DNA from: a virus
Lineage: Duplodnaviria > Heunggongvirae > Uroviricota > Caudoviricetes
Reading direction: 5' to 3' (one strand)
Virus record (IMG/VR): IMGVR_UViG_2671180695_000010
Length of the DNA: 4,399 nucleotides
Below, one piece after another: positions 1 to 4,399 of this stretch (its first letter is position 1; each line of letters begins with the position of its first letter). The notes beneath the pieces are model-generated. The model saw nothing but the letters and a program-made list of their open reading frames with translations. It ran no database searches and was not told the origin of the DNA. Position numbers and translations under genes: made by a program.

Positions 1-1085
1 GACTGCAGCGTGGCCGCTGCCAGCCCCAGACGGGCATTTTCCCGGTCATTCCATGCGCCCTGAAGGTTGGCCCGGAAAGAGGCGGTTTTTCCCCGGCGCT
101 GGCTCCGGCTCTGGTACCACTGCCATTTTTTATCCGCCTCATCAAATGCCTTCTGTGCACTGGCGAGCATATCCGCTGAGGACTCAGGACGACCGATATC
201 CAGAATGGCATCCCACATCGATTTGAATGCCTTCCCTGTTTTATCCGCCCAGGTCTCCAGTGTTCCCATGTTTTCTTTCAGGCGACGGGTCTGCTCATCA
301 AAGCCTTTCGTGGCGATATCGTTCGCCGCCTGCAATGCCCCGGCCTCGTCTCCGGAACGCTGCAGCTGTGCAACATACGCAATCTGCTCTGCCGTCACGT
401 TACGGAACTGGCGCGCCATCGCCATCAGTCCCGACGTCGGGNNNNNNGCAAAACGCGCGACACTCTGGTTGATGGCATCAAACTGTTCACCACCACGCAC
501 ACCGGCATTCACCAGGGCTGCCAGTGACTCACTCGCCTGGTTAAACGTCAGCCCTGCGGCCTGTCCGGCTCTGGAGAGCGTCAGCATGCGATCGGCAGTC
601 AGTCCGGACTGATTACCGGAAAGAACCAGGGTTTTATTAAACGCTGAAAGCGTGGAATCCCCCTGGTACCAGGCGTACGCCAGCGCACCTGTCGCCACCG
701 CCAGCGAGGTGACCCCGACCATCGGCAGGGTGATCGCACCGGCAAGTCCCCTGAACATGGGGATCATCCCGCCGAAGGAGTCCTTCACCTGACCGCCCTG
801 TTGCAGCAGGATCAGCCAGGGATTCTGACCACCGGCAAGCTGCGTGGCGATATCCGTAAACTGTGCGGGCAGGGTTCGCATGGCCGCTTTATACTGCCCG
901 ACGGAAATCCCGGCTTTTTGTGCAGCCAGCGCCTGGCGGCTCAGGCCCTGTTCAACAGCACTGGCGGTTTTTCTGGCGTCAGTCTCCAGTCCGGAAAAAT
1001 GACGCCTTACCCGGCTCATCTGCTCATCGAAACGGACCGCATCCAGACTCAGGTCAATAACAAGATCACCAACCGGCTGGGACAT
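1..1085 (-). CDS. H: Tail tape measure protein (lambda gpH-like), N-terminal ~361 codons; 3' end runs off the window at position 1; interrupted by a 6-nt N run at 442-447
   Basis: Not in the ORF track because no stop lies in the window. My translation from the ATG at 1085-1083 (minus strand) gives MSQPVGDLVIDLSLDAVRFDEQMSRVRRHFSGLETDARKTA..., closely matching the lambda gpH N-terminus as I recall it (MAEPVGDLVVDLSLDAARFDEQMARVRRHFSG...). A spot check at 601-719 gives VGVTSLAVATGALAYAWYQGDSTLSAFNKTLVLSGNQSGL, again matching lambda H. A GGAGGT Shine-Dalgarno lies 7 nt upstream. Only 1-180, 601-719 and 961-1085 were checked by hand in this frame; no stop was seen there. Confidence 0.9.
   Translation of the reverse strand, partial: MSQPVGDLVIDLSLDAVRFDEQMSRVRRHFSGLETDARKTASAVEQGLSRQALAAQKAGISVGQYKAAMRTLPAQFTDIATQLAGGQNPWLILLQQGGQVKDSFGGMIPMFRGLAGAITLPMVGVTSLAVATGALAYAWYQGDSTLSAFNKTLVLSGNQSGLTADRMLTLSRAGQAAGLTFNQASESLAALVNAGVRGGEQFDAINQSVARFXXXPTSGLMAMARQFRNVTAEQIAYVAQLQRSGDEAGALQAANDIATKGFDEQTRRLKENMGTLETWADKTGKAFKSMWDAILDIGRPESSADMLASAQKAFDEADKKWQWYQSRSQRRGKTASFRANLQGAWNDRENARLGLAAATLQ
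442..447. other. Run of 6 ambiguous bases (N) inside the tape measure gene; assembly or masking artefact
   Basis: Literal 'nnnnnn' in the sequence at 442-447. The length is a multiple of 3, so the H reading frame is preserved across it. Confidence 0.95.
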
Positions 1086-1937
1086 ATCTCACACCTCCGG
1101 AAATCCCCGCTGAAGCCATCATTAATGCGACATCATCCTCGCTGACATCCGCCACATCCGCAGACGATAAAATCTCACGCCCTCCGTCCCCACCAAACCG
1201 GACGCCTCCGGCAAGTCCTGCCGCTTTCTGCATCAGCATTTTTTCCTCATCCGGCATCTCCGTCTGCGCTTCCTCACGCCGGGGGGCAAGCAGACTGAAA
1301 TCAGAGGGATGCATATCCGGATCGCAAAAAAACAGGCTGAGTACGGCGTACGTCAGCCCGGAAAAATGCATATCCAGTTGGGTATCGAGAAAATAATGCG
1401 TACGGTAAAAATGTCGCCAGTCGGCATATTCGGTGGATGTCATCCCGGCAAGCATGGCGCGCCAGTCAGGCCTCCCCATCTCACGCGCCAGTCTGAGGGC
1501 AAAATTCAGCTCGCCGTCGAAGACTTTCCCGCAGAAAAATCATCATCAGTCAGCGCGTTATTTTTCGCCACTTCGGTGCTGTCAGTATCCGCATGAACAG
1601 CCCCGCTCATCCCGGACAGACGCAACACCACATCTTCCGCCCGGGCAATGGCATCCGCAGGCCAGGTGGTGAGCACCTCCTGTTCGATCTGCATCACAGC
1701 CTCATTCATTGACGGTGATGCCGTTTTCTGCGGATGGTTATGCCACAGGGACATCGCCACCAGAAACGCGCCGGTTCTGACGAGATCTTCCACGCTTACC
1801 TGCAGGTTGCCGCTGGATTCTGCCTGTTCTGCACGCCGTTTCAGGAGGGCAAGATGCTCAATACGCTGCAGCGCAGACAATTCGGAAAGCGTGACGGACA
1901 CACCGTTATATTCAAATTGTTCGGTTTTCAGAAACAT
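1066..1937 (-). CDS. T: Tail assembly chaperone fusion gpGT, made by a programmed -1 ribosomal frameshift from the G frame into the T frame at the slippery heptamer 1530..1524; T-frame stop at 1068-1066
   Basis: The T-frame ORF (track ORF 1066..1479 and its upstream extension) translates after the shift as ...GKVFDGELNFALRLAREMGRPDWRAMLAGMTSTEYADWRHFYRTHYFLDTQLDMHFSGLTYAVLSLFF..., matching lambda gpT as I recall it. There is no plausible independent start with an RBS for T. The slippery heptamer sits in the correct phase in the G frame (gcG GGA AAG). Confidence 0.85.
1093..1098 (-). promoter_or_regulatory. Shine-Dalgarno (GGAGGT) for the tape measure gene H
   Basis: Plus-strand 'acctcc' at 1093-1098 reads GGAGGT on the minus strand, 7 nt upstream of the H start codon at 1085. 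It lies inside the 3' end of the T reading frame. Confidence 0.6.
1506..1937 (-). CDS. G: Tail assembly chaperone gpG (143 aa)
   Basis: Track ORF 1506..1937 (-): MFLKTEQFEYNGVSVTLSELSALQRIEHLALLKRRAEQAE...AMSLWHNHPQKT...MNEAV.QIEQEVLTTWP...AEDVVLRLSGM, near-identical in blocks to lambda gpG as recalled. A strong GGAGGT Shine-Dalgarno lies 5 nt upstream of the ATG. Position between V and T/H matches lambda synteny. Confidence 0.93.
   Translation of the reverse strand: MFLKTEQFEYNGVSVTLSELSALQRIEHLALLKRRAEQAESSGNLQVSVEDLVRTGAFLVAMSLWHNHPQKTASPSMNEAVMQIEQEVLTTWPADAIARAEDVVLRLSGMSGAVHADTDSTEVAKNNALTDDDFSAGKSSTAS
1524..1530 (-). promoter_or_regulatory. Programmed -1 frameshift slippery heptamer G GGA AAG (G/GT recoding site)
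   Basis: Plus-strand 'ctttccc' at 1524-1530 is GGGAAAG on the minus strand. In the G frame the codons are gcG GGA AAG (A-G-K), 6 codons before the G stop. Shifting -1 here opens the T frame through to 1066. Confidence 0.85.
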
Positions 1938-1942
1938 GTATT

Positions 1943-1948
1943 ACCTCC
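1943..1948 (-). promoter_or_regulatory. Shine-Dalgarno (GGAGGT) for G
   Basis: Plus-strand 'acctcc' at 1943-1948 reads GGAGGT on the minus strand, 5 nt upstream of the G ATG at 1937, in the 13-nt V-G intergenic gap. Confidence 0.65.
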
Positions 1949-1950
1949 GT

Positions 1951-2703
1951 TTACCCTGCAGCGCCCGCTTCAGTAACGGTGACTTCAGCTACCGTGGCAA
2001 ACTGACCATTACCGGAAATCACGGGGATACTCACTTTTCCAGCCTTAACCCCCGTCACAGTGATCGCCATATCTTTCACAGCAATGGTTCCCGTTGACGG
2101 ATCGGCGGAAACCGCTCTGAACGTTTTGTCGGTTGCACTTTCCGGCTCAAAAGAAACCGTCAGGGTTGTTGTTTTCCCTTTTGCCACCGTACCAGATGTC
2201 GGCGTCACCTTAATCGCAGTGACCGGCGTAATTTCGCTGCGTTCTTCCGCCACAGAAGGTTTACCCACGTTGGTCACTTTCACCGTACGGGTGATCACTT
2301 CCTTCGCCGTTACGGCCTTACCGATACTGCTGACCCAGCCACGGAACACATCCACCGTGCCGTTCGGGAAACGGATTTTATAGGCCCGCACATCCCCGCT
2401 TTCAAACCAGCCTATAAGCCCTTTCTGACCTTCTTCTCCCGGTTTCCAGGCCAGCGTAAAACTGGTATCTCCTGCAGACTTCTGCCCCTGCCCGGTCGCA
2501 GTCCAGTCCGCGTCTTCATCATCCAGGTAGTTATCATCGTAGGGTTCTGCCGTCATCTCGCCCGGCGTCAGATCCTTTACCTGTGCCAGTCGCTGCCAGT
2601 TATCGTCTGACAACGGGTTTGCATAGGCATCACCCTGACCGTTATAAACCCACAGGGTGGTACCGGCACCTTTTACCGGTGCCAGAGGATTTGGTGTTGG
2701 CAT
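1951..2703 (-). CDS. V: Major tail tube protein gpV (250 aa) with a C-terminal Ig-like (Big_2-type) domain
   Basis: Track ORF 1951..2703 (-): [33 protein letters not shown]...[43 protein letters not shown]...[44 protein letters not shown], matching lambda gpV as recalled. The C-terminal ~90 aa is T/V/S-rich and beta-strand-like, as in the lambda gpV Ig-like domain. Confidence 0.95.
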
Positions 2704-2710
2704 ATCGTCC

Positions 2711-3106
2711 TCACATCTCGTATGTAATGGAATAAGTCAAATCAGCAGAACTCCATAACGCCATATCGTCATCACGACGATACTCATAGCCCTGCGTAAC
2801 CATCGTGGTAATCAGGCCTGACAGTGCCGGGATCGCACTCATCGCCGGATAAATCCGGCTTTCCATCCACGAATCCAGCTCTGAATCCGGCACCTGAGCA
2901 GGCAGGAAAACTTCAATATGCAGCTCCGCCTGCCAGGTATCGCTGTCCAGCGCTTCGCCCGTGTATTCAGCGCCGGTGAGATAAACAGCAATTGCCGGAA
3001 AATCCGCCTCATCAAAAACAGCGGGGCGACCATCAAACAGCGTCGCCCCGTGTTCATGCTGCTCGAGTGCATCCAGCACTGCAGCACGGATATCAGTATG
3101 TTTCAT
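2711..3106 (-). CDS. U: Tail terminator protein gpU (131 aa)
   Basis: Track ORF 2711..3106 (-): [131 protein letters not shown], same length as and near-collinear with lambda gpU as recalled. The start codon overlaps the Z stop (ATGA). Confidence 0.95.
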
Positions 3107-3678
3107 CGCTTTATCACAATCCTTAGTTGTTGTTTCAACGCATAGCCCAGTTCTTTTGGCAGACGTTCTCGCCGGATACGGTTAACGTTCTCATCAAAAG
3201 CCTGCTTCAGTGGGGCCGCCATCGGAATTTTAACCACCTGAATGGGAAGACGATTACGCTTTTTCCTTCCTTTATCGTCATTGCCCTTCGCATACCGGGC
3301 TTCTGGCAAACGTTGCATAACATGCCAGCGCCCATTATTTAATCGCTGGATGAATGCCCGCTGATAACGATGCTGACCGGCTTTAAGTATGCTGTTCGGA
3401 CGATGACCAAGCATCCTGATCCCCAGCTTAATAGCAGGGAGATCACCGCGGTTAACGATAATTCTGGCATTCGGATTTCTGACCGTCGCCCGTTTCAGTC
3501 TGGACCGTTCCTTTACCAGTTTCCGGCTCACCCTGGTCTCCCGGGCAACCTGTGATGAAGACTGATTAATCGCCGTTGTAGCCACGCGGTTAATAGCCAT
3601 TGCTGAAGCCGACGGAATGGCGTTTTTACGAACCCGGCTCAGATTTTCAATCGCCTGATCAAGCCCTTTTATCGCCAT
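3103..3678 (-). CDS. Z: Tail completion / minor tail protein gpZ (191 aa)
   Basis: Track ORF 3103..3678 (-): MAIKGLDQAIENLSRVRKNAIPSASAMAINRVATTAINQSSSQVARETRVSRKLVKERSRLKRATVRNPNARIIVNRGDLP.IKLG...AFIQ.L.NGRWHVMQR...KIPMA.PL...F..N..RIRRERLPKELGYAL.QQLR.VIKR, matching lambda gpZ at both termini as recalled. Position between FII and U matches lambda synteny. Confidence 0.93.
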   Translation of the reverse strand: MAIKGLDQAIENLSRVRKNAIPSASAMAINRVATTAINQSSSQVARETRVSRKLVKERSRLKRATVRNPNARIIVNRGDLPAIKLGIRMLGHRPNSILKAGQHRYQRAFIQRLNNGRWHVMQRLPEARYAKGNDDKGRKKRNRLPIQVVKIPMAAPLKQAFDENVNRIRRERLPKELGYALKQQLRIVIKR

Positions 3679-3692
3679 AATTCACCCTGCGT

Positions 3693-4046
3693 TTATCGTC
3701 GCCGGTTAACTGCGGGTGGTTGCCCACGGTTCAGCCAGAGATAACAACTGCCCCCGTCATCCGGAGAAACACGATCCACCCAGAACATCTCACCATTAAT
3801 GGTCAACGTGTCACCACGCCGCACGGCACGAACCGTATCCGTCCGCACAAATAATGACGGGCTGCTTCCTTCAATACGGATCCCACTACTGGCAAACCCC
3901 AGCGACTCCGGATCGTCAAAAACCCCCTGAACTTCGCCGCCACGCTGTGCACCGGAGGTGAACTGCGCACTGATGCCCATCACTTCAACAATCGTACTGT
4001 CCACCCCGGCAAGGGCGGCATCAAAGGCATTCTGAAAATCACGCAT
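3693..4046 (-). CDS. FII: Head-tail joining protein gpFII (117 aa from the ATG at 4046)
   Basis: Track ORF 3693..4082 (-) contains MRDFQNAFDAALAGVDSTIVEVMGISAQFTSGAQRGGEVQGVFDDPESLGFASSGIRIEGSSPSLFVRTDTVRAVRRGDTLTINGEMFWVDRVSPDDGGSCYLWLNRGQPPAVNRRR, matching lambda gpFII (MADFDNLFDAAIARAD...SPSLFVRTDEVRQLRRGDTLTIGEENFWVDRVSPDDGGSCHLWLGRGVPPAVNRRR) at the same 117-aa length. The start was chosen by homology at the third in-frame ATG (4046) rather than the track's 4082. Confidence 0.9.
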   Translation of the reverse strand: MRDFQNAFDAALAGVDSTIVEVMGISAQFTSGAQRGGEVQGVFDDPESLGFASSGIRIEGSSPSLFVRTDTVRAVRRGDTLTINGEMFWVDRVSPDDGGSCYLWLNRGQPPAVNRRR

Positions 4047-4399
4047 AAACAGCCATTCCACCATCAACGTGTGTTTTTGCATCTGAGGACATAATCAGAA
4101 TCACCCGACCAACATCCGCAAGCTCAACGGATTCCCCCGTTTCACCATCAACGCCACAGAGATGGAGGCAGGTCAGAACTCTGATGCGCGTTAACGCGCC
4201 GGATGTTTCCTCACGAACATCATGAGCCGCGTTTTCCCTCTCCCGGATATCCATATTCATAACCTGTACATCATCGCCGGATGACTGCATTTCCTCTTCC
4301 CATTCTGCCACCCGCTGCGCTATCTCTGCGGCACTCCCGGATATATCCGGCTCACGCCCCAGAATCAGGGCCAGTTCATCAAGCCGTTTCAGATTTTGC
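4039..4399 (-). CDS. FI: Probable DNA-packaging / head assembly accessory protein gpFI-like; 5' end off-window, stop at 4041-4039
   Basis: The minus-strand frame is open from the window edge (4398) to the stop at 4039: QNLKRLDELALILGREPDISGSAAEIAQRVAEWEEEMQSSGDDVQVMNMDIRERENAAHDVREETSG... The track's 'start' at 4311 is an internal GTG. Assignment rests mainly on synteny (immediately upstream of FII, as in lambda) and the acidic character; I cannot verify identity to lambda FI from memory. Confidence 0.65.
   Translation of the reverse strand, partial: QNLKRLDELALILGREPDISGSAAEIAQRVAEWEEEMQSSGDDVQVMNMDIRERENAAHDVREETSGALTRIRVLTCLHLCGVDGETGESVELADVGRVILIMSSDAKTHVDGGMAVYA

What the first reader, a model, noticed from the sequence alone, without database searches (positions are those of the whole stretch)
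1506..1535. Conserved G/GT programmed -1 ribosomal frameshift site (G GGA AAG) six codons before the G stop
The heptamer GGGAAAG is in the exact X XXY YYZ phase in the G frame (gcG GGA AAG). The -1 frame downstream is open for about 152 codons and encodes a gpT homologue with no independent start. This is the well-established mechanism in lambda, where a small fraction of ribosomes make gpGT to chaperone tape measure assembly. It is the strongest non-ORF signal in the window and means the T ORF should not be annotated as a stand-alone gene starting at the track's internal ATG (1479).
Basis: partly seen in the sequence, partly recalled or inferred. Interest (0 to 1): 0.5.

Follow-up and report, generated by a model that had tools for sequence, protein, structure and literature searches.

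The report
Lambda-type G/GT tail chaperone frameshift site
This is the well-known phage lambda "slippery" site, where a few percent of ribosomes slip back one base at the end of tail gene G to make a G-T fusion protein needed to build the tail; it is real here but ordinary, because the same site occurs in prophages of most E. coli genomes.

Summary
Confirmed and already known. The window carries, on the minus strand, a lambda-like tail module: FI, FII, Z, U, V, G, T, H. GGGAAAG lies at 1530..1524 in exact G GGA AAG phase of gene G (1937..1506). Five sense codons follow the AAG before the G stop.

The -1 frame opens only three codons upstream, at 1539, after TGA TGA TGA. It runs 152 codons past the Lys codon to a stop at 1068..1066. 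It encodes a gpT homologue that is 74% identical to lambda T. The conceptual 290-aa GT fusion matches phrog_32165 end to end (E 9e-173).

The heptamer has the same sequence, phase and distance to the stop as lambda's experimentally mapped site. Relatives keep a shift-prone heptamer at the same aligned position even where its sequence differs (A AAA AAG or G GAA AAG). The internal ATG (1479) used by RefSeq annotation has no well-placed Shine-Dalgarno sequence, is Phe in most of the family, and lies downstream of conserved T-family sequence.

G-T is 100% identical to an E. coli ML35 prophage. Similar DNA occurs in 3630 of 5426 complete E. coli genomes.

One loose end is a candidate conserved mRNA structure starting 7 nt after the heptamer. 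The evidence for it is moderate and it is untested.

The parts
1506..1937 (-). Gene G: tail assembly chaperone gpG, 143 aa. This is the zero frame. It has a strong Shine-Dalgarno sequence (acGGAGGtaatacATG).
   Evidence: ORF. PF06894 E 8.9e-50. TIGR01674 163.9 bits against a cut-off of 74.45. 69% identical to lambda G. SD duplex -10.9 kcal/mol at spacing 4.
1524..1530 (-). Slippery heptamer G GGA AAG (Gly137-Lys138 of G). This is the site of the -1 shift. In the -1 frame it reads GGG AAA, so the peptide is Gly-Lys either way.
   Evidence: Identical in sequence, phase and distance to the stop to lambda J02459 10109..10115.
1506..1539 (-). The 34-nt overlap in which both the G frame and the T (-1) frame are open. 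It is preceded by three -1-frame stops, TGA TGA TGA, at 1548..1540.
1066..1524 (-). T-frame segment translated after the shift: 152 codons (VFDGELNFALRLAREMGRPDW...) plus the TGA stop at 1068..1066. Base 1524 is read twice, so the fused product GT is join(1937..1524, 1524..1066), 290 aa.
   Evidence: TIGR01715 199 bits, matching fusion residues 143-252. PF06223. phrog_32165 matched 1-290 of 290, E 9.2e-173. 74% identical to lambda T.
1477..1479 (-). Internal ATG (Met154 of GT). RefSeq uses it as the start of a stand-alone T gene, but it is probably not a real initiation site.
   Evidence: PGAP CDS in the identical ML35 prophage starts here. Upstream sequence is ctggcgcgtgagATG, with a best anti-SD duplex of only -6.4 kcal/mol at spacing 1, against -10.9 for G and -13.4 for H at spacing 4-5. 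The residue is Phe in N15, phi80, HK225 and all 80 distant IMG/VR relatives.
1446..1516 (-). Candidate downstream mRNA structure (not established). Outer helix 1516..1509 (CGGCGAGC) pairs with 1453..1446 (GCUUGCCG), starting 7 nt after the heptamer. It encloses the hairpin 1490..1480 / 1465..1455, whose loop contains the internal ATG.
   Evidence: Folds (window z -2.4, lambda -3.5, N15 -4.5). Pair counts. Tree-based count. In a sliding scan of the window it ranks only 9th of 201.
1951..2703 (-). Gene V, major tail tube protein with a C-terminal Ig-like Big_2 domain. This is the upstream neighbour that defines the context.
   Evidence: PF16461 E 2.2e-68, PF02368 E 2.3e-16. phrog_41.
3..1085 (-). 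5' part of gene H, the tape measure protein. Its ATG at 1085 overlaps the end of T by 20 nt. This is the downstream neighbour and the substrate of G/GT.
   Evidence: PF06791 E 5.4e-57. phrog_4498 and phrog_24. Translation.

Best explanation
This is the lambda-type G/GT programmed -1 ribosomal frameshift site of a lambdoid E. coli prophage.

Ribosomes start at the G start codon (1937). Most terminate at the G stop (1508..1506) and make the 143-aa chaperone gpG. A few percent slip back one nucleotide when Gly-tRNA and Lys-tRNA occupy GGA and AAG of G GGA AAG (1530..1524), and re-pair on GGG AAA. They then read the T frame for 152 more codons and make a 290-aa gpGT fusion.

By analogy with lambda, many gpG molecules and a few gpGT molecules coat the tape measure protein H. 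The T part recruits the tube protein V. Neither protein ends up in the finished tail, and the fixed gpG:gpGT ratio (about 30:1) is set by the slip frequency.

Shown here: the ORF geometry, heptamer phase, family memberships, identity with lambda's site, and conservation across relatives. Inferred from lambda experiments: that the slip occurs, its frequency, and the assembly role.
For: 1. Geometry. The heptamer is in exact phase. The overlap is 34 nt. The -1 frame is open for 152 codons after the Lys codon.

2. Family membership. G matches PF06894 and TIGR01674. T matches PF06223 and TIGR01715. The context is V-G-T-H. The conceptual fusion matches phrog_32165 over 1-290 of 290, E 9.2e-173, so fusions of exactly this form are already catalogued.

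3. Same site as lambda. The sequence tctgcGGGAAAGt..ttcgacgg.gagctga is shared, with five codons to the stop in both. G is 69% and T 74% identical to lambda. The literature gives GGGAAAG as the lambda G/GT slippery sequence, with about 96% zero-frame reading, a 30:1 ratio and dependence on tRNA-Lys mnm5s2U (PMC3296357, PMC5009743, PMC7618472). G_GGA_AAG is described as highly shift-prone in E. coli (PMC5009743).

4. Comparative evidence.
- 79 of 79 close IMG/VR loci that carry the T motif keep GGGAAAG, while the bases just after it vary.
- CP-1639 and Stx1 phages have A AAA AAG at the same aligned position.
- N15, phi80, HK225, 10 Enterobacteriaceae-type prophage loci (one assembled in a Geobacteraceae MAG) and 80 of 80 distant IMG/VR loci have G GAA AAG there.
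- 'A AAG' and Lys138 are invariant, although the surrounding G C-terminal tail is poorly conserved.
- N15's record annotates this position as a -1 slippery sequence.

5. Evidence against a separate T start. T homology begins at fusion residue 143, 11 residues before the ATG. There is no SD at usable spacing. The Met is Phe in most of the family.

6. Uniqueness. It is the only one of four in-phase XXXYYYZ heptamers in the window's genes that leads into a long -1 ORF.
Against: - No protein-level or ribosome-profiling data exist for this sequence. The slip itself is inferred by homology.
- The heptamer alone is expected 0.7 times per window by chance.
- An ATG does exist in the T frame (1479), so independent initiation cannot be excluded from sequence alone.
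- The window may come from a defective prophage. A 6-N run replaces 60 nt of H relative to ML35. The site may therefore be intact but not currently expressed.
Confidence: 0.93

Rival explanations
1. T is an ordinary stand-alone gene translated from its own ATG at 1479, as RefSeq/PGAP annotates it. On this view the heptamer is an inherited but irrelevant sequence.
For: An in-frame ATG exists at 1479. PGAP calls a 137-aa 'phage tail assembly protein T' from it in the identical ML35 prophage and in every E. coli row listed. Several phage records do the same.
Against: - The best anti-SD pairing upstream is -6.4 kcal/mol and abuts the ATG at spacing 1. G has -10.9 and H -13.4 at spacing 4-5.
- The ATG sits inside a predicted stable hairpin.
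- The Met is Phe in N15, phi80, HK225 and 80 of 80 distant relatives, yet the T frame and its sequence (ELxFxLKLARE) stay conserved upstream of it, back to the heptamer.
- The -1 frame is closed by stops just upstream of the heptamer in many members, so conservation begins exactly at the slip site.
- From memory of Levin et al. 1993 (paper not held here): T-frame sequence in lambda is found only as gpGT.
Confidence: 0.04
2. The heptamer is a chance or relic feature and no recoding happens. The T frame would be a decaying remnant in a cryptic prophage.
For: GGGAAAG is expected about 0.7 times per window by chance. The window's H gene carries a 6-N run where ML35 has 60 nt. One related locus (L056) has a broken T.
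Against: - The T frame is intact for 152 codons and scores 199 bits against the T equivalog model.
- The heptamer is conserved in 79 of 79 close relatives while flanking bases vary.
- Other clades have different but still shift-prone heptamers at the same position. That is the signature of selection on slipperiness, not on sequence.
Confidence: 0.02
3. The GT fusion arises by transcriptional slippage (RNA polymerase stuttering on the A run) rather than ribosomal slippage.
For: Some relatives have a run of seven A (A AAA AAG in CP-1639 and Stx1 phages). Such runs can support some polymerase slippage. Transcriptional slippage is used in other length-ruler systems (PMC5009743).
Against: This window has only three consecutive A's (GGGAAAG), too short for efficient polymerase slippage. 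The strict X XXY YYZ codon phase, conserved across clades, is required for tRNA re-pairing and is irrelevant to polymerase slippage. Lambda's frameshift frequency responds to tRNA-Lys thiolation (PMC3296357), which is a ribosomal signature.
Confidence: 0.01

Closest known systems
Bacteriophage lambda G/GT -1 programmed ribosomal frameshift (G GGA AAG; Levin, Hendrix & Casjens 1993; Xu, Hendrix & Duda 2004, 2013, 2014)
   Same: - Same heptamer, same phase, and same five sense codons between AAG and the G stop.
- Same V-G-T-H gene order.
- G is 69% and T 74% identical. G-T DNA is about 76% identical.
- The first residues after the slip are the same (GKVFDGEL).
- The same internal ATG context (ctggcgcgtgagATGggg) is present.
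   Different: - G is 143 aa here, against 140 in lambda. GT is 290 aa, against 284 for the conceptual lambda fusion (138 + 146 by the same join).
- The acidic linker before the site differs (TDDDFSAGK against PAEPVSAGK).
- The -1 frame opens 3 codons before the heptamer here, against 13 in lambda.
- None of these differences affects the mechanism.
Identical or near-identical prophage copies: E. coli ML35 NZ_CP025747.1 (100% over G-T) and Stx2a-converting phages such as LC727840 (98.7%)
   Same: Same G, T and heptamer. Similar G-T DNA (at least about 75% identical) is found in 3630 of 5426 complete E. coli genomes, with a median of 2 copies per genome that has any.
   Different: The window is not ML35 itself. 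There are 7 substitutions at 936-962, and a 6-N run at 442-447 stands where ML35 has 60 nt of H. RefSeq annotates G and T as two separate CDSs without ribosomal slippage.
N15 / phi80 / HK225-type G-T frameshift (G GAA AAG; annotated in NC_001901 as 'slippery sequence for -1 translational frameshift')
   Same: Homologous G and T (about 40% and about 50-60% identical). The aligned position of the slip site is the same, as are the invariant A AAG Lys codon and the usual five codons to the stop.
   Different: The P-site codon is GAA rather than GGA, so it is not a perfect X XXY YYZ. Those phages probably rely mainly on the A-site A_AAG tetramer slip (the Z_ZZN motif class of PMC4066793). Their T is shorter and has Phe where this window has the internal Met.
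E. coli dnaX -1 frameshift (A AAA AAG with an upstream SD-like element and a downstream hairpin)
   Same: Same mechanism class: tandem or A-site slippage of tRNA-Lys(mnm5s2UUU) on A AAG in E. coli (PMC5009743).
   Different: dnaX shifts at about 50% and needs two stimulators. It also gives a shorter product. Here the expected rate is a few percent and the product is longer. No SD-like element lies 6-17 nt upstream (read). A downstream structure is only a candidate.

Membership tests
Lambda-type G/GT tail assembly chaperone -1 PRF | Two overlapping ORFs lie between the major tail (tube) protein gene and the tape measure gene. | tested here: met
   V (PF16461) at 2703..1951, G at 1937..1506, T frame at 1539..1066, H (PF06791) from 1085.
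Lambda-type G/GT tail assembly chaperone -1 PRF | The upstream ORF belongs to the lambda gpG chaperone family. | tested here: met
   PF06894 at 168.2 bits (cut-off 27). TIGR01674 equivalog at 163.9 bits (cut-off 74.45)..
Lambda-type G/GT tail assembly chaperone -1 PRF | The downstream ORF is in the -1 frame relative to G, overlaps its 3' end and belongs to the gpT family. | tested here: met
   The frame relation was read. The overlap is 34 nt. TIGR01715 equivalog at 199.1 bits (cut-off 77.35) and PF06223 at 45.9 bits (cut-off 25.9)..
Lambda-type G/GT tail assembly chaperone -1 PRF | An in-phase slippery heptamer (X XXY YYZ) lies inside the overlap, at the position homologous to lambda's mapped site. 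| tested here: met
   G GGA AAG at 1530..1524. It aligns base for base with lambda 10109..10115, and both have five codons to the stop.
Lambda-type G/GT tail assembly chaperone -1 PRF | The downstream ORF has no functional initiation site of its own. | tested here: inconclusive
   An ATG exists at 1479. It has a poor, mis-spaced SD, is not conserved (Phe in most relatives) and lies in a predicted hairpin. Sequence alone cannot exclude weak initiation.
Lambda-type G/GT tail assembly chaperone -1 PRF | A G-T fusion protein is made at a few percent of gpG, and both proteins are required for tail assembly. | not testable with these tools
   Known for lambda (PMC5009743, PMC3296357). No expression data exist for this sequence.
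Stimulated bacterial -1 PRF signals (dnaX / IS3 type) | A downstream hairpin or pseudoknot lies 5-9 nt after the heptamer and is supported by covariation. | tested here: inconclusive
   - A candidate helix starts 7 nt downstream. In 9 of 12 diverged relatives, independent folding gives the same architecture, with z from about -2.4 to -4.5 in most.
- Pair 25:93 is A-U in 26 sequences and G-C in 23, with no one-sided intermediates. That corresponds to about 2 independent switches on a neighbour-joining tree.
- Most other pairs are invariant. The L122 clade lacks the helix. In this window the segment ranks only 9th of 201.
Stimulated bacterial -1 PRF signals (dnaX / IS3 type) | An upstream Shine-Dalgarno-like element lies 6-17 nt 5' of the heptamer. 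| tested here: not met
   The upstream sequence is gctgactgatgatgatttttctgc. It contains no GGAG, GAGG or AGGA (read directly).

The most novel reading that the evidence does not exclude
The G/GT frameshift of the lambda/N15/phi80 family may not be 'heptamer only'. A conserved branched mRNA structure may both tune the slip frequency and hide the internal ATG of T.

Its outer helix starts 5-7 nt after the slip site (window 1516..1509 with 1453..1446). It encloses a hairpin at 1490..1455 that contains the ATG. This could explain why no free gpT is made.

The papers held here describe no stimulator for lambda G/GT. I could not read Levin et al. 1993 to check whether the structure was already tested.
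Probability: 0.25. Interest if true: 0.35.

Novelty: already known. Interest (0 to 1): 0.1.

Why it matters
Biologically this adds nothing new. It is another copy of one of the best-studied recoding sites.

Its practical value is for annotation. In the identical RefSeq prophage, and in all the E. coli rows inspected, T is annotated as a separate 137-aa gene starting at an internal ATG. The 290-aa GT fusion is not annotated. Proteomics databases and gene counts for a module with matches in about two thirds of complete E. coli genomes are probably wrong in the same way.

The comparative series is a clean illustration of selection on slipperiness rather than on sequence. G GGA AAG, A AAA AAG and G GAA AAG all sit at one aligned position.

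The candidate downstream structure, if real, would modestly revise the view of this frameshift as unstimulated.

Tried and rejected
- **Rfam.** A scan of the whole window at E<=1 found only a chance miRNA hit (22.6 bits against a gathering score of 60) and no frameshift element family.
- **PDB.** A sequence search with the GT fusion found no solved relatives at E<=0.01.
- **Primary papers.** Levin et al. 1993 (PMID 8230192) and Xu et al. 2013 (PMC3762263) are not held. Statements about the absence of free gpT and about downstream stimulators in lambda therefore rest on reviews or on memory and are marked as such.
- **Literature search for a lambda G-T stimulator.** It found nothing specific.
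- **RNAalifold on 17 junctions.** It gave a covariation term of only -1.1 kcal/mol and missed the long-range helix. I then tested the window's own minimum-free-energy structure explicitly.
- **First sliding z-score scan.** It timed out and was repeated with fewer shuffles.
- **Promoter/terminator consensus scan.** It found nothing relevant near the site.
- **Transcriptional slippage and chance.** Both were considered and rejected for the reasons given under the rival explanations.
- **Not done.** I ran no structure prediction and no large protein database searches. The family assignment was already unambiguous.

Full report
**What is in the window**

All long ORFs lie on the minus strand and form a lambda-like head-tail joining and tail module:
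- FI, partial, 4398..4042 (PF14000)
- FII, head-tail attachment, 4082..3693 (PF05354)
- Z, 3678..3103 (PF06763)
- U, tail terminator, 3106..2711 (PF06141)
- V, tail tube with a C-terminal Big_2 Ig-like domain, 2703..1951 (PF16461 and PF02368)
- G, 1937..1506 (PF06894)
- the T frame, 1539..1066 (PF06223)
- the 5' 361 codons of the tape measure gene H, from 1085 (PF06791)

The G-T segment (1040..1960) is 100% identical to a prophage of E. coli ML35 (NZ_CP025747.1). It is 98.7% identical to a series of Stx2a-converting phages and about 76% identical to lambda. Similar DNA occurs in 3630 of 5426 complete E. coli genomes, with a median of two copies per genome that has any.

**Checking the observation**

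GGGAAAG occurs once, at 1530..1524 on the minus strand. With G starting at 1937, the codons read ...TCT GCG GGA AAG TCT TCG ACG GCG AGC TGA. The heptamer is therefore in exact X XXY YYZ phase (gcG GGA AAG). Five sense codons follow the AAG before the stop at 1508..1506.

In the -1 frame the sequence reads TGA TGA TGA TTT TTC TGC GGG AAA GTC TTC GAC.... The frame is closed until 1540. It opens three codons before the heptamer and then runs 152 codons past the Lys codon to TGA at 1068..1066. The two frames are simultaneously open for only 34 nt.

The heptamer as a bare word is not significant, since 0.70 copies are expected per window. Its placement is significant:
- There are about nine in-phase positions in the overlap. 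A uniform estimate gives about 3.5% for any XXXYYYZ there and about 0.2% for an X XXA AAG.
- Among 1467 in-phase positions in the window's reading frames there are only four XXXYYYZ heptamers.
- The other three lead to -1 ORFs of 6, 15 and 17 codons. This one leads to 154.

**What the two frames encode**

A conceptual fusion is G residues 1-138 followed by the T frame, 290 aa in all. It matches TIGR01674 (phage tail assembly chaperone G, equivalog) over residues 1-138. It matches TIGR01715 (phage tail assembly protein T, equivalog, 199 bits) from residue 143. It also matches phrog_32165 over its whole length, 1-290 of 290, E 9.2e-173. Fusions of exactly this architecture are therefore already catalogued. 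G is 69% and T 74% identical to the lambda proteins. No solved structure is related at the sequence level.

**Comparison with lambda and other relatives**

In lambda (J02459) the heptamer GGGAAAG lies at 10109..10115. It has the same phase, the same five codons to the G stop and the same following residues, GKVFDGEL.

The literature held here states the following:
- GGGAAAG is lambda's G/GT slippery sequence.
- About 96% of ribosomes stay in frame.
- The gpG:gpGT ratio of about 30:1 is critical for tail assembly.
- Neither protein is in the virion.
- The G parts bind the tape measure protein, and the T part binds the tube protein.
- The slip frequency depends on the mnm5s2U34 modification of tRNA-Lys (PMC3296357, PMC5009743, PMC7618472).
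- G_GGA_AAG is listed among the highly shift-prone heptamers in E. coli (PMC5009743).

Across relatives the pattern is what selection on slipperiness predicts:
- 79 of 79 close IMG/VR loci that carry the T motif keep GGGAAAG, while the two bases after it vary (GTC, GTT, GCC).
- CP-1639 and an Stx1a phage have a different G C-terminus but carry A AAA AAG at the same aligned position, also five codons from the stop.
- N15, phi80, HK225, ten Enterobacteriaceae-type prophage loci from the genome collection (one of them assembled in a Geobacteraceae MAG) and 80 of 80 distant IMG/VR loci carry G GAA AAG there, five or one codons from the stop. The N15 record annotates it as a -1 slippery sequence.
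- Lys138 and 'A AAG' are invariant, although the 25 residues before them are the least conserved part of G.

**Is T a separate gene?**

RefSeq/PGAP annotates T in the identical ML35 prophage as a 137-aa CDS from the ATG that corresponds to window 1479. Four observations argue against that start:
- The sequence upstream is ctggcgcgtgagATG. The best pairing to the 16S 3' end is -6.4 kcal/mol and abuts the ATG. G has -10.9 and H -13.4 kcal/mol at spacing 4-5.
- The T equivalog model aligns from 11 residues upstream of the Met. The peptide between the heptamer and the ATG (ELxFxLKLARE) is conserved across the family.
- The Met itself is Phe (LAREFGRPDW) in N15, phi80, HK225 and all 80 distant relatives.
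- The ATG lies in the loop region of a predicted stable hairpin.

Weak internal initiation still cannot be excluded from sequence alone.

**A side observation: possible downstream structure**

Folding the 84 nt after the heptamer gives an outer helix, CGGCGAGC (1516..1509) with GCUUGCCG (1453..1446). It starts 7 nt after the heptamer, which is the classical spacing for -1 PRF stimulators. It encloses the hairpin 1490..1480 / 1465..1455.

Evidence in favour:
- Folded independently, 9 of 12 diverged relatives give the same architecture. The z-scores against dinucleotide shuffles are -3.5 for lambda, -4.5 for N15, -3.8 for phi80, -4.2 for L118 and -2.4 for the window.
- On 54 non-redundant junctions, 88.5% of cells pair. 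Pair 25:93 is A-U in 26 sequences and G-C in 23, with no one-sided intermediates. On a neighbour-joining tree built from T sequence outside the structure, this corresponds to about two joint switches.
- Synonymous positions inside the stems are less variable than those in the loops. For example GAC Asp22 is invariant in 54 of 54 and GAG Glu17 is kept in 49 of 54.

Evidence against:
- Most pairs are simply invariant.
- The protein here is itself highly conserved.
- One clade (L122-L126) lacks the helix.
- The phi80 group has a G.G mismatch in its middle.
- The structure was derived from one of the sequences tested.
- In a sliding scan of this window the segment ranks only 9th of 201. In N15 it ranks first of 98.

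I regard this as a candidate only. I could not read Levin et al. 1993 to see whether it was tested. The reviews held here mention no stimulator for lambda G/GT.

**Verdict**

This is a member of the lambda G/GT frameshift family, and in fact the same site in a close relative. It is not novel. Its main practical relevance is that automated annotation splits G and T and omits the fusion.

Noticed in passing
window 1446..1516 (minus strand); alignments A2 and A4: Candidate conserved branched mRNA structure. Its outer 8-bp helix starts 7 nt after the slippery heptamer, and an inner hairpin (1490..1455) contains the internal ATG of T. The same architecture is recovered by independent folding in 9 of 12 diverged relatives, including lambda (z -3.5) and N15 (z -4.5). 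One pair shows G-C/A-U covariation with no intermediates (26/23/0). Evidence is moderate, not decisive.
   Followed up: partly
window ~1317..1377 (minus strand), inside the T coding region: Very stable hairpin (-28.4 kcal/mol, z -5.07, 0 of 200 shuffles as stable). A GC-rich inner stem, GGGCUGACGUAC..GUACUCAGCCUG, is followed by UUUUUUU, so it resembles an intrinsic terminator in the sense orientation within T. It is conserved in lambda (z -2.7) and CP-1639 (z -3.7) but absent from N15, phi80 and L130. The simple terminator scan did not call it. Its function is unknown.
   Followed up: partly
window 442..447: A run of six N's inside the tape measure gene H. In the ML35 prophage H, 60 nt (20 aa, SASGVEVDKVAEAFGKLTTD) occupy this place, so 54 nt are missing in frame. 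This could be masking, an assembly gap or a real deletion. Just upstream, at 936-962, there are 7 substitutions relative to ML35.
   Followed up: partly
loci L092-L104 and L106-L110, L112, L114 (genome-contig scan): Lambda G sequence (69% identical to the window's G over its full length, the same value as lambda itself; L094 checked and it carries lambda's exact junction) turns up on short, roughly 1x-coverage contigs in assemblies labelled Neobacillus, Oceanobacillus, Kitasatospora, Pseudomonas, Shewanella, Leeuwenhoekiella and others, and shorter partial G matches (64-81%) in Bradyrhizobium, Enterococcus and others. This is almost certainly lambda control or spike-in DNA contaminating those assemblies.
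   Followed up: no
window 1066..1200 (minus strand); alignment A3: The C-terminus of T carries an internal duplication...LMQKAAGLAGGVRFG... and ...LMMASAGISGGVRY. It is shared with lambda. N15, phi80, CP-1639 and the Enterobacter-type T proteins have only one copy and end about 35 residues earlier.
   Followed up: no
window 1540..1548 (minus strand): Three consecutive -1-frame stop codons (TGA TGA TGA) arise from the Asp-Asp-Asp codons GAT GAT GAT of G. They end three codons before the heptamer, so any premature -1 slip further upstream would terminate at once. Lambda lacks them; its -1 frame opens 13 codons before the heptamer.
   Followed up: yes
L009 (E. coli ML35) 3524..4395, and the rows: RefSeq/PGAP annotates 'phage tail assembly chaperone G' and 'phage tail assembly protein T' as two separate CDSs, with T starting at the internal ATG. 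This held in every E. coli row listed. No ribosomal_slippage GT product is annotated. It looks like a systematic annotation gap for a module with matches in about two thirds of complete E. coli genomes.
   Followed up: partly
L056 ~1908..2030: In one IMG/VR relative the T frame diverges abruptly after ...RAMLA and hits a stop (ACSGTVNLAT*). This suggests an insertion, a rearrangement or a contig chimera inside T.
   Followed up: no
window 1066..1085 (minus strand): The H start codon (ATG at 1085, strong SD ccGGAGGtgtgagatATG, -13.4 kcal/mol) lies 20 nt inside the end of the T frame. H initiation therefore overlaps GT termination. In lambda the overlap is 8 nt.
   Followed up: no
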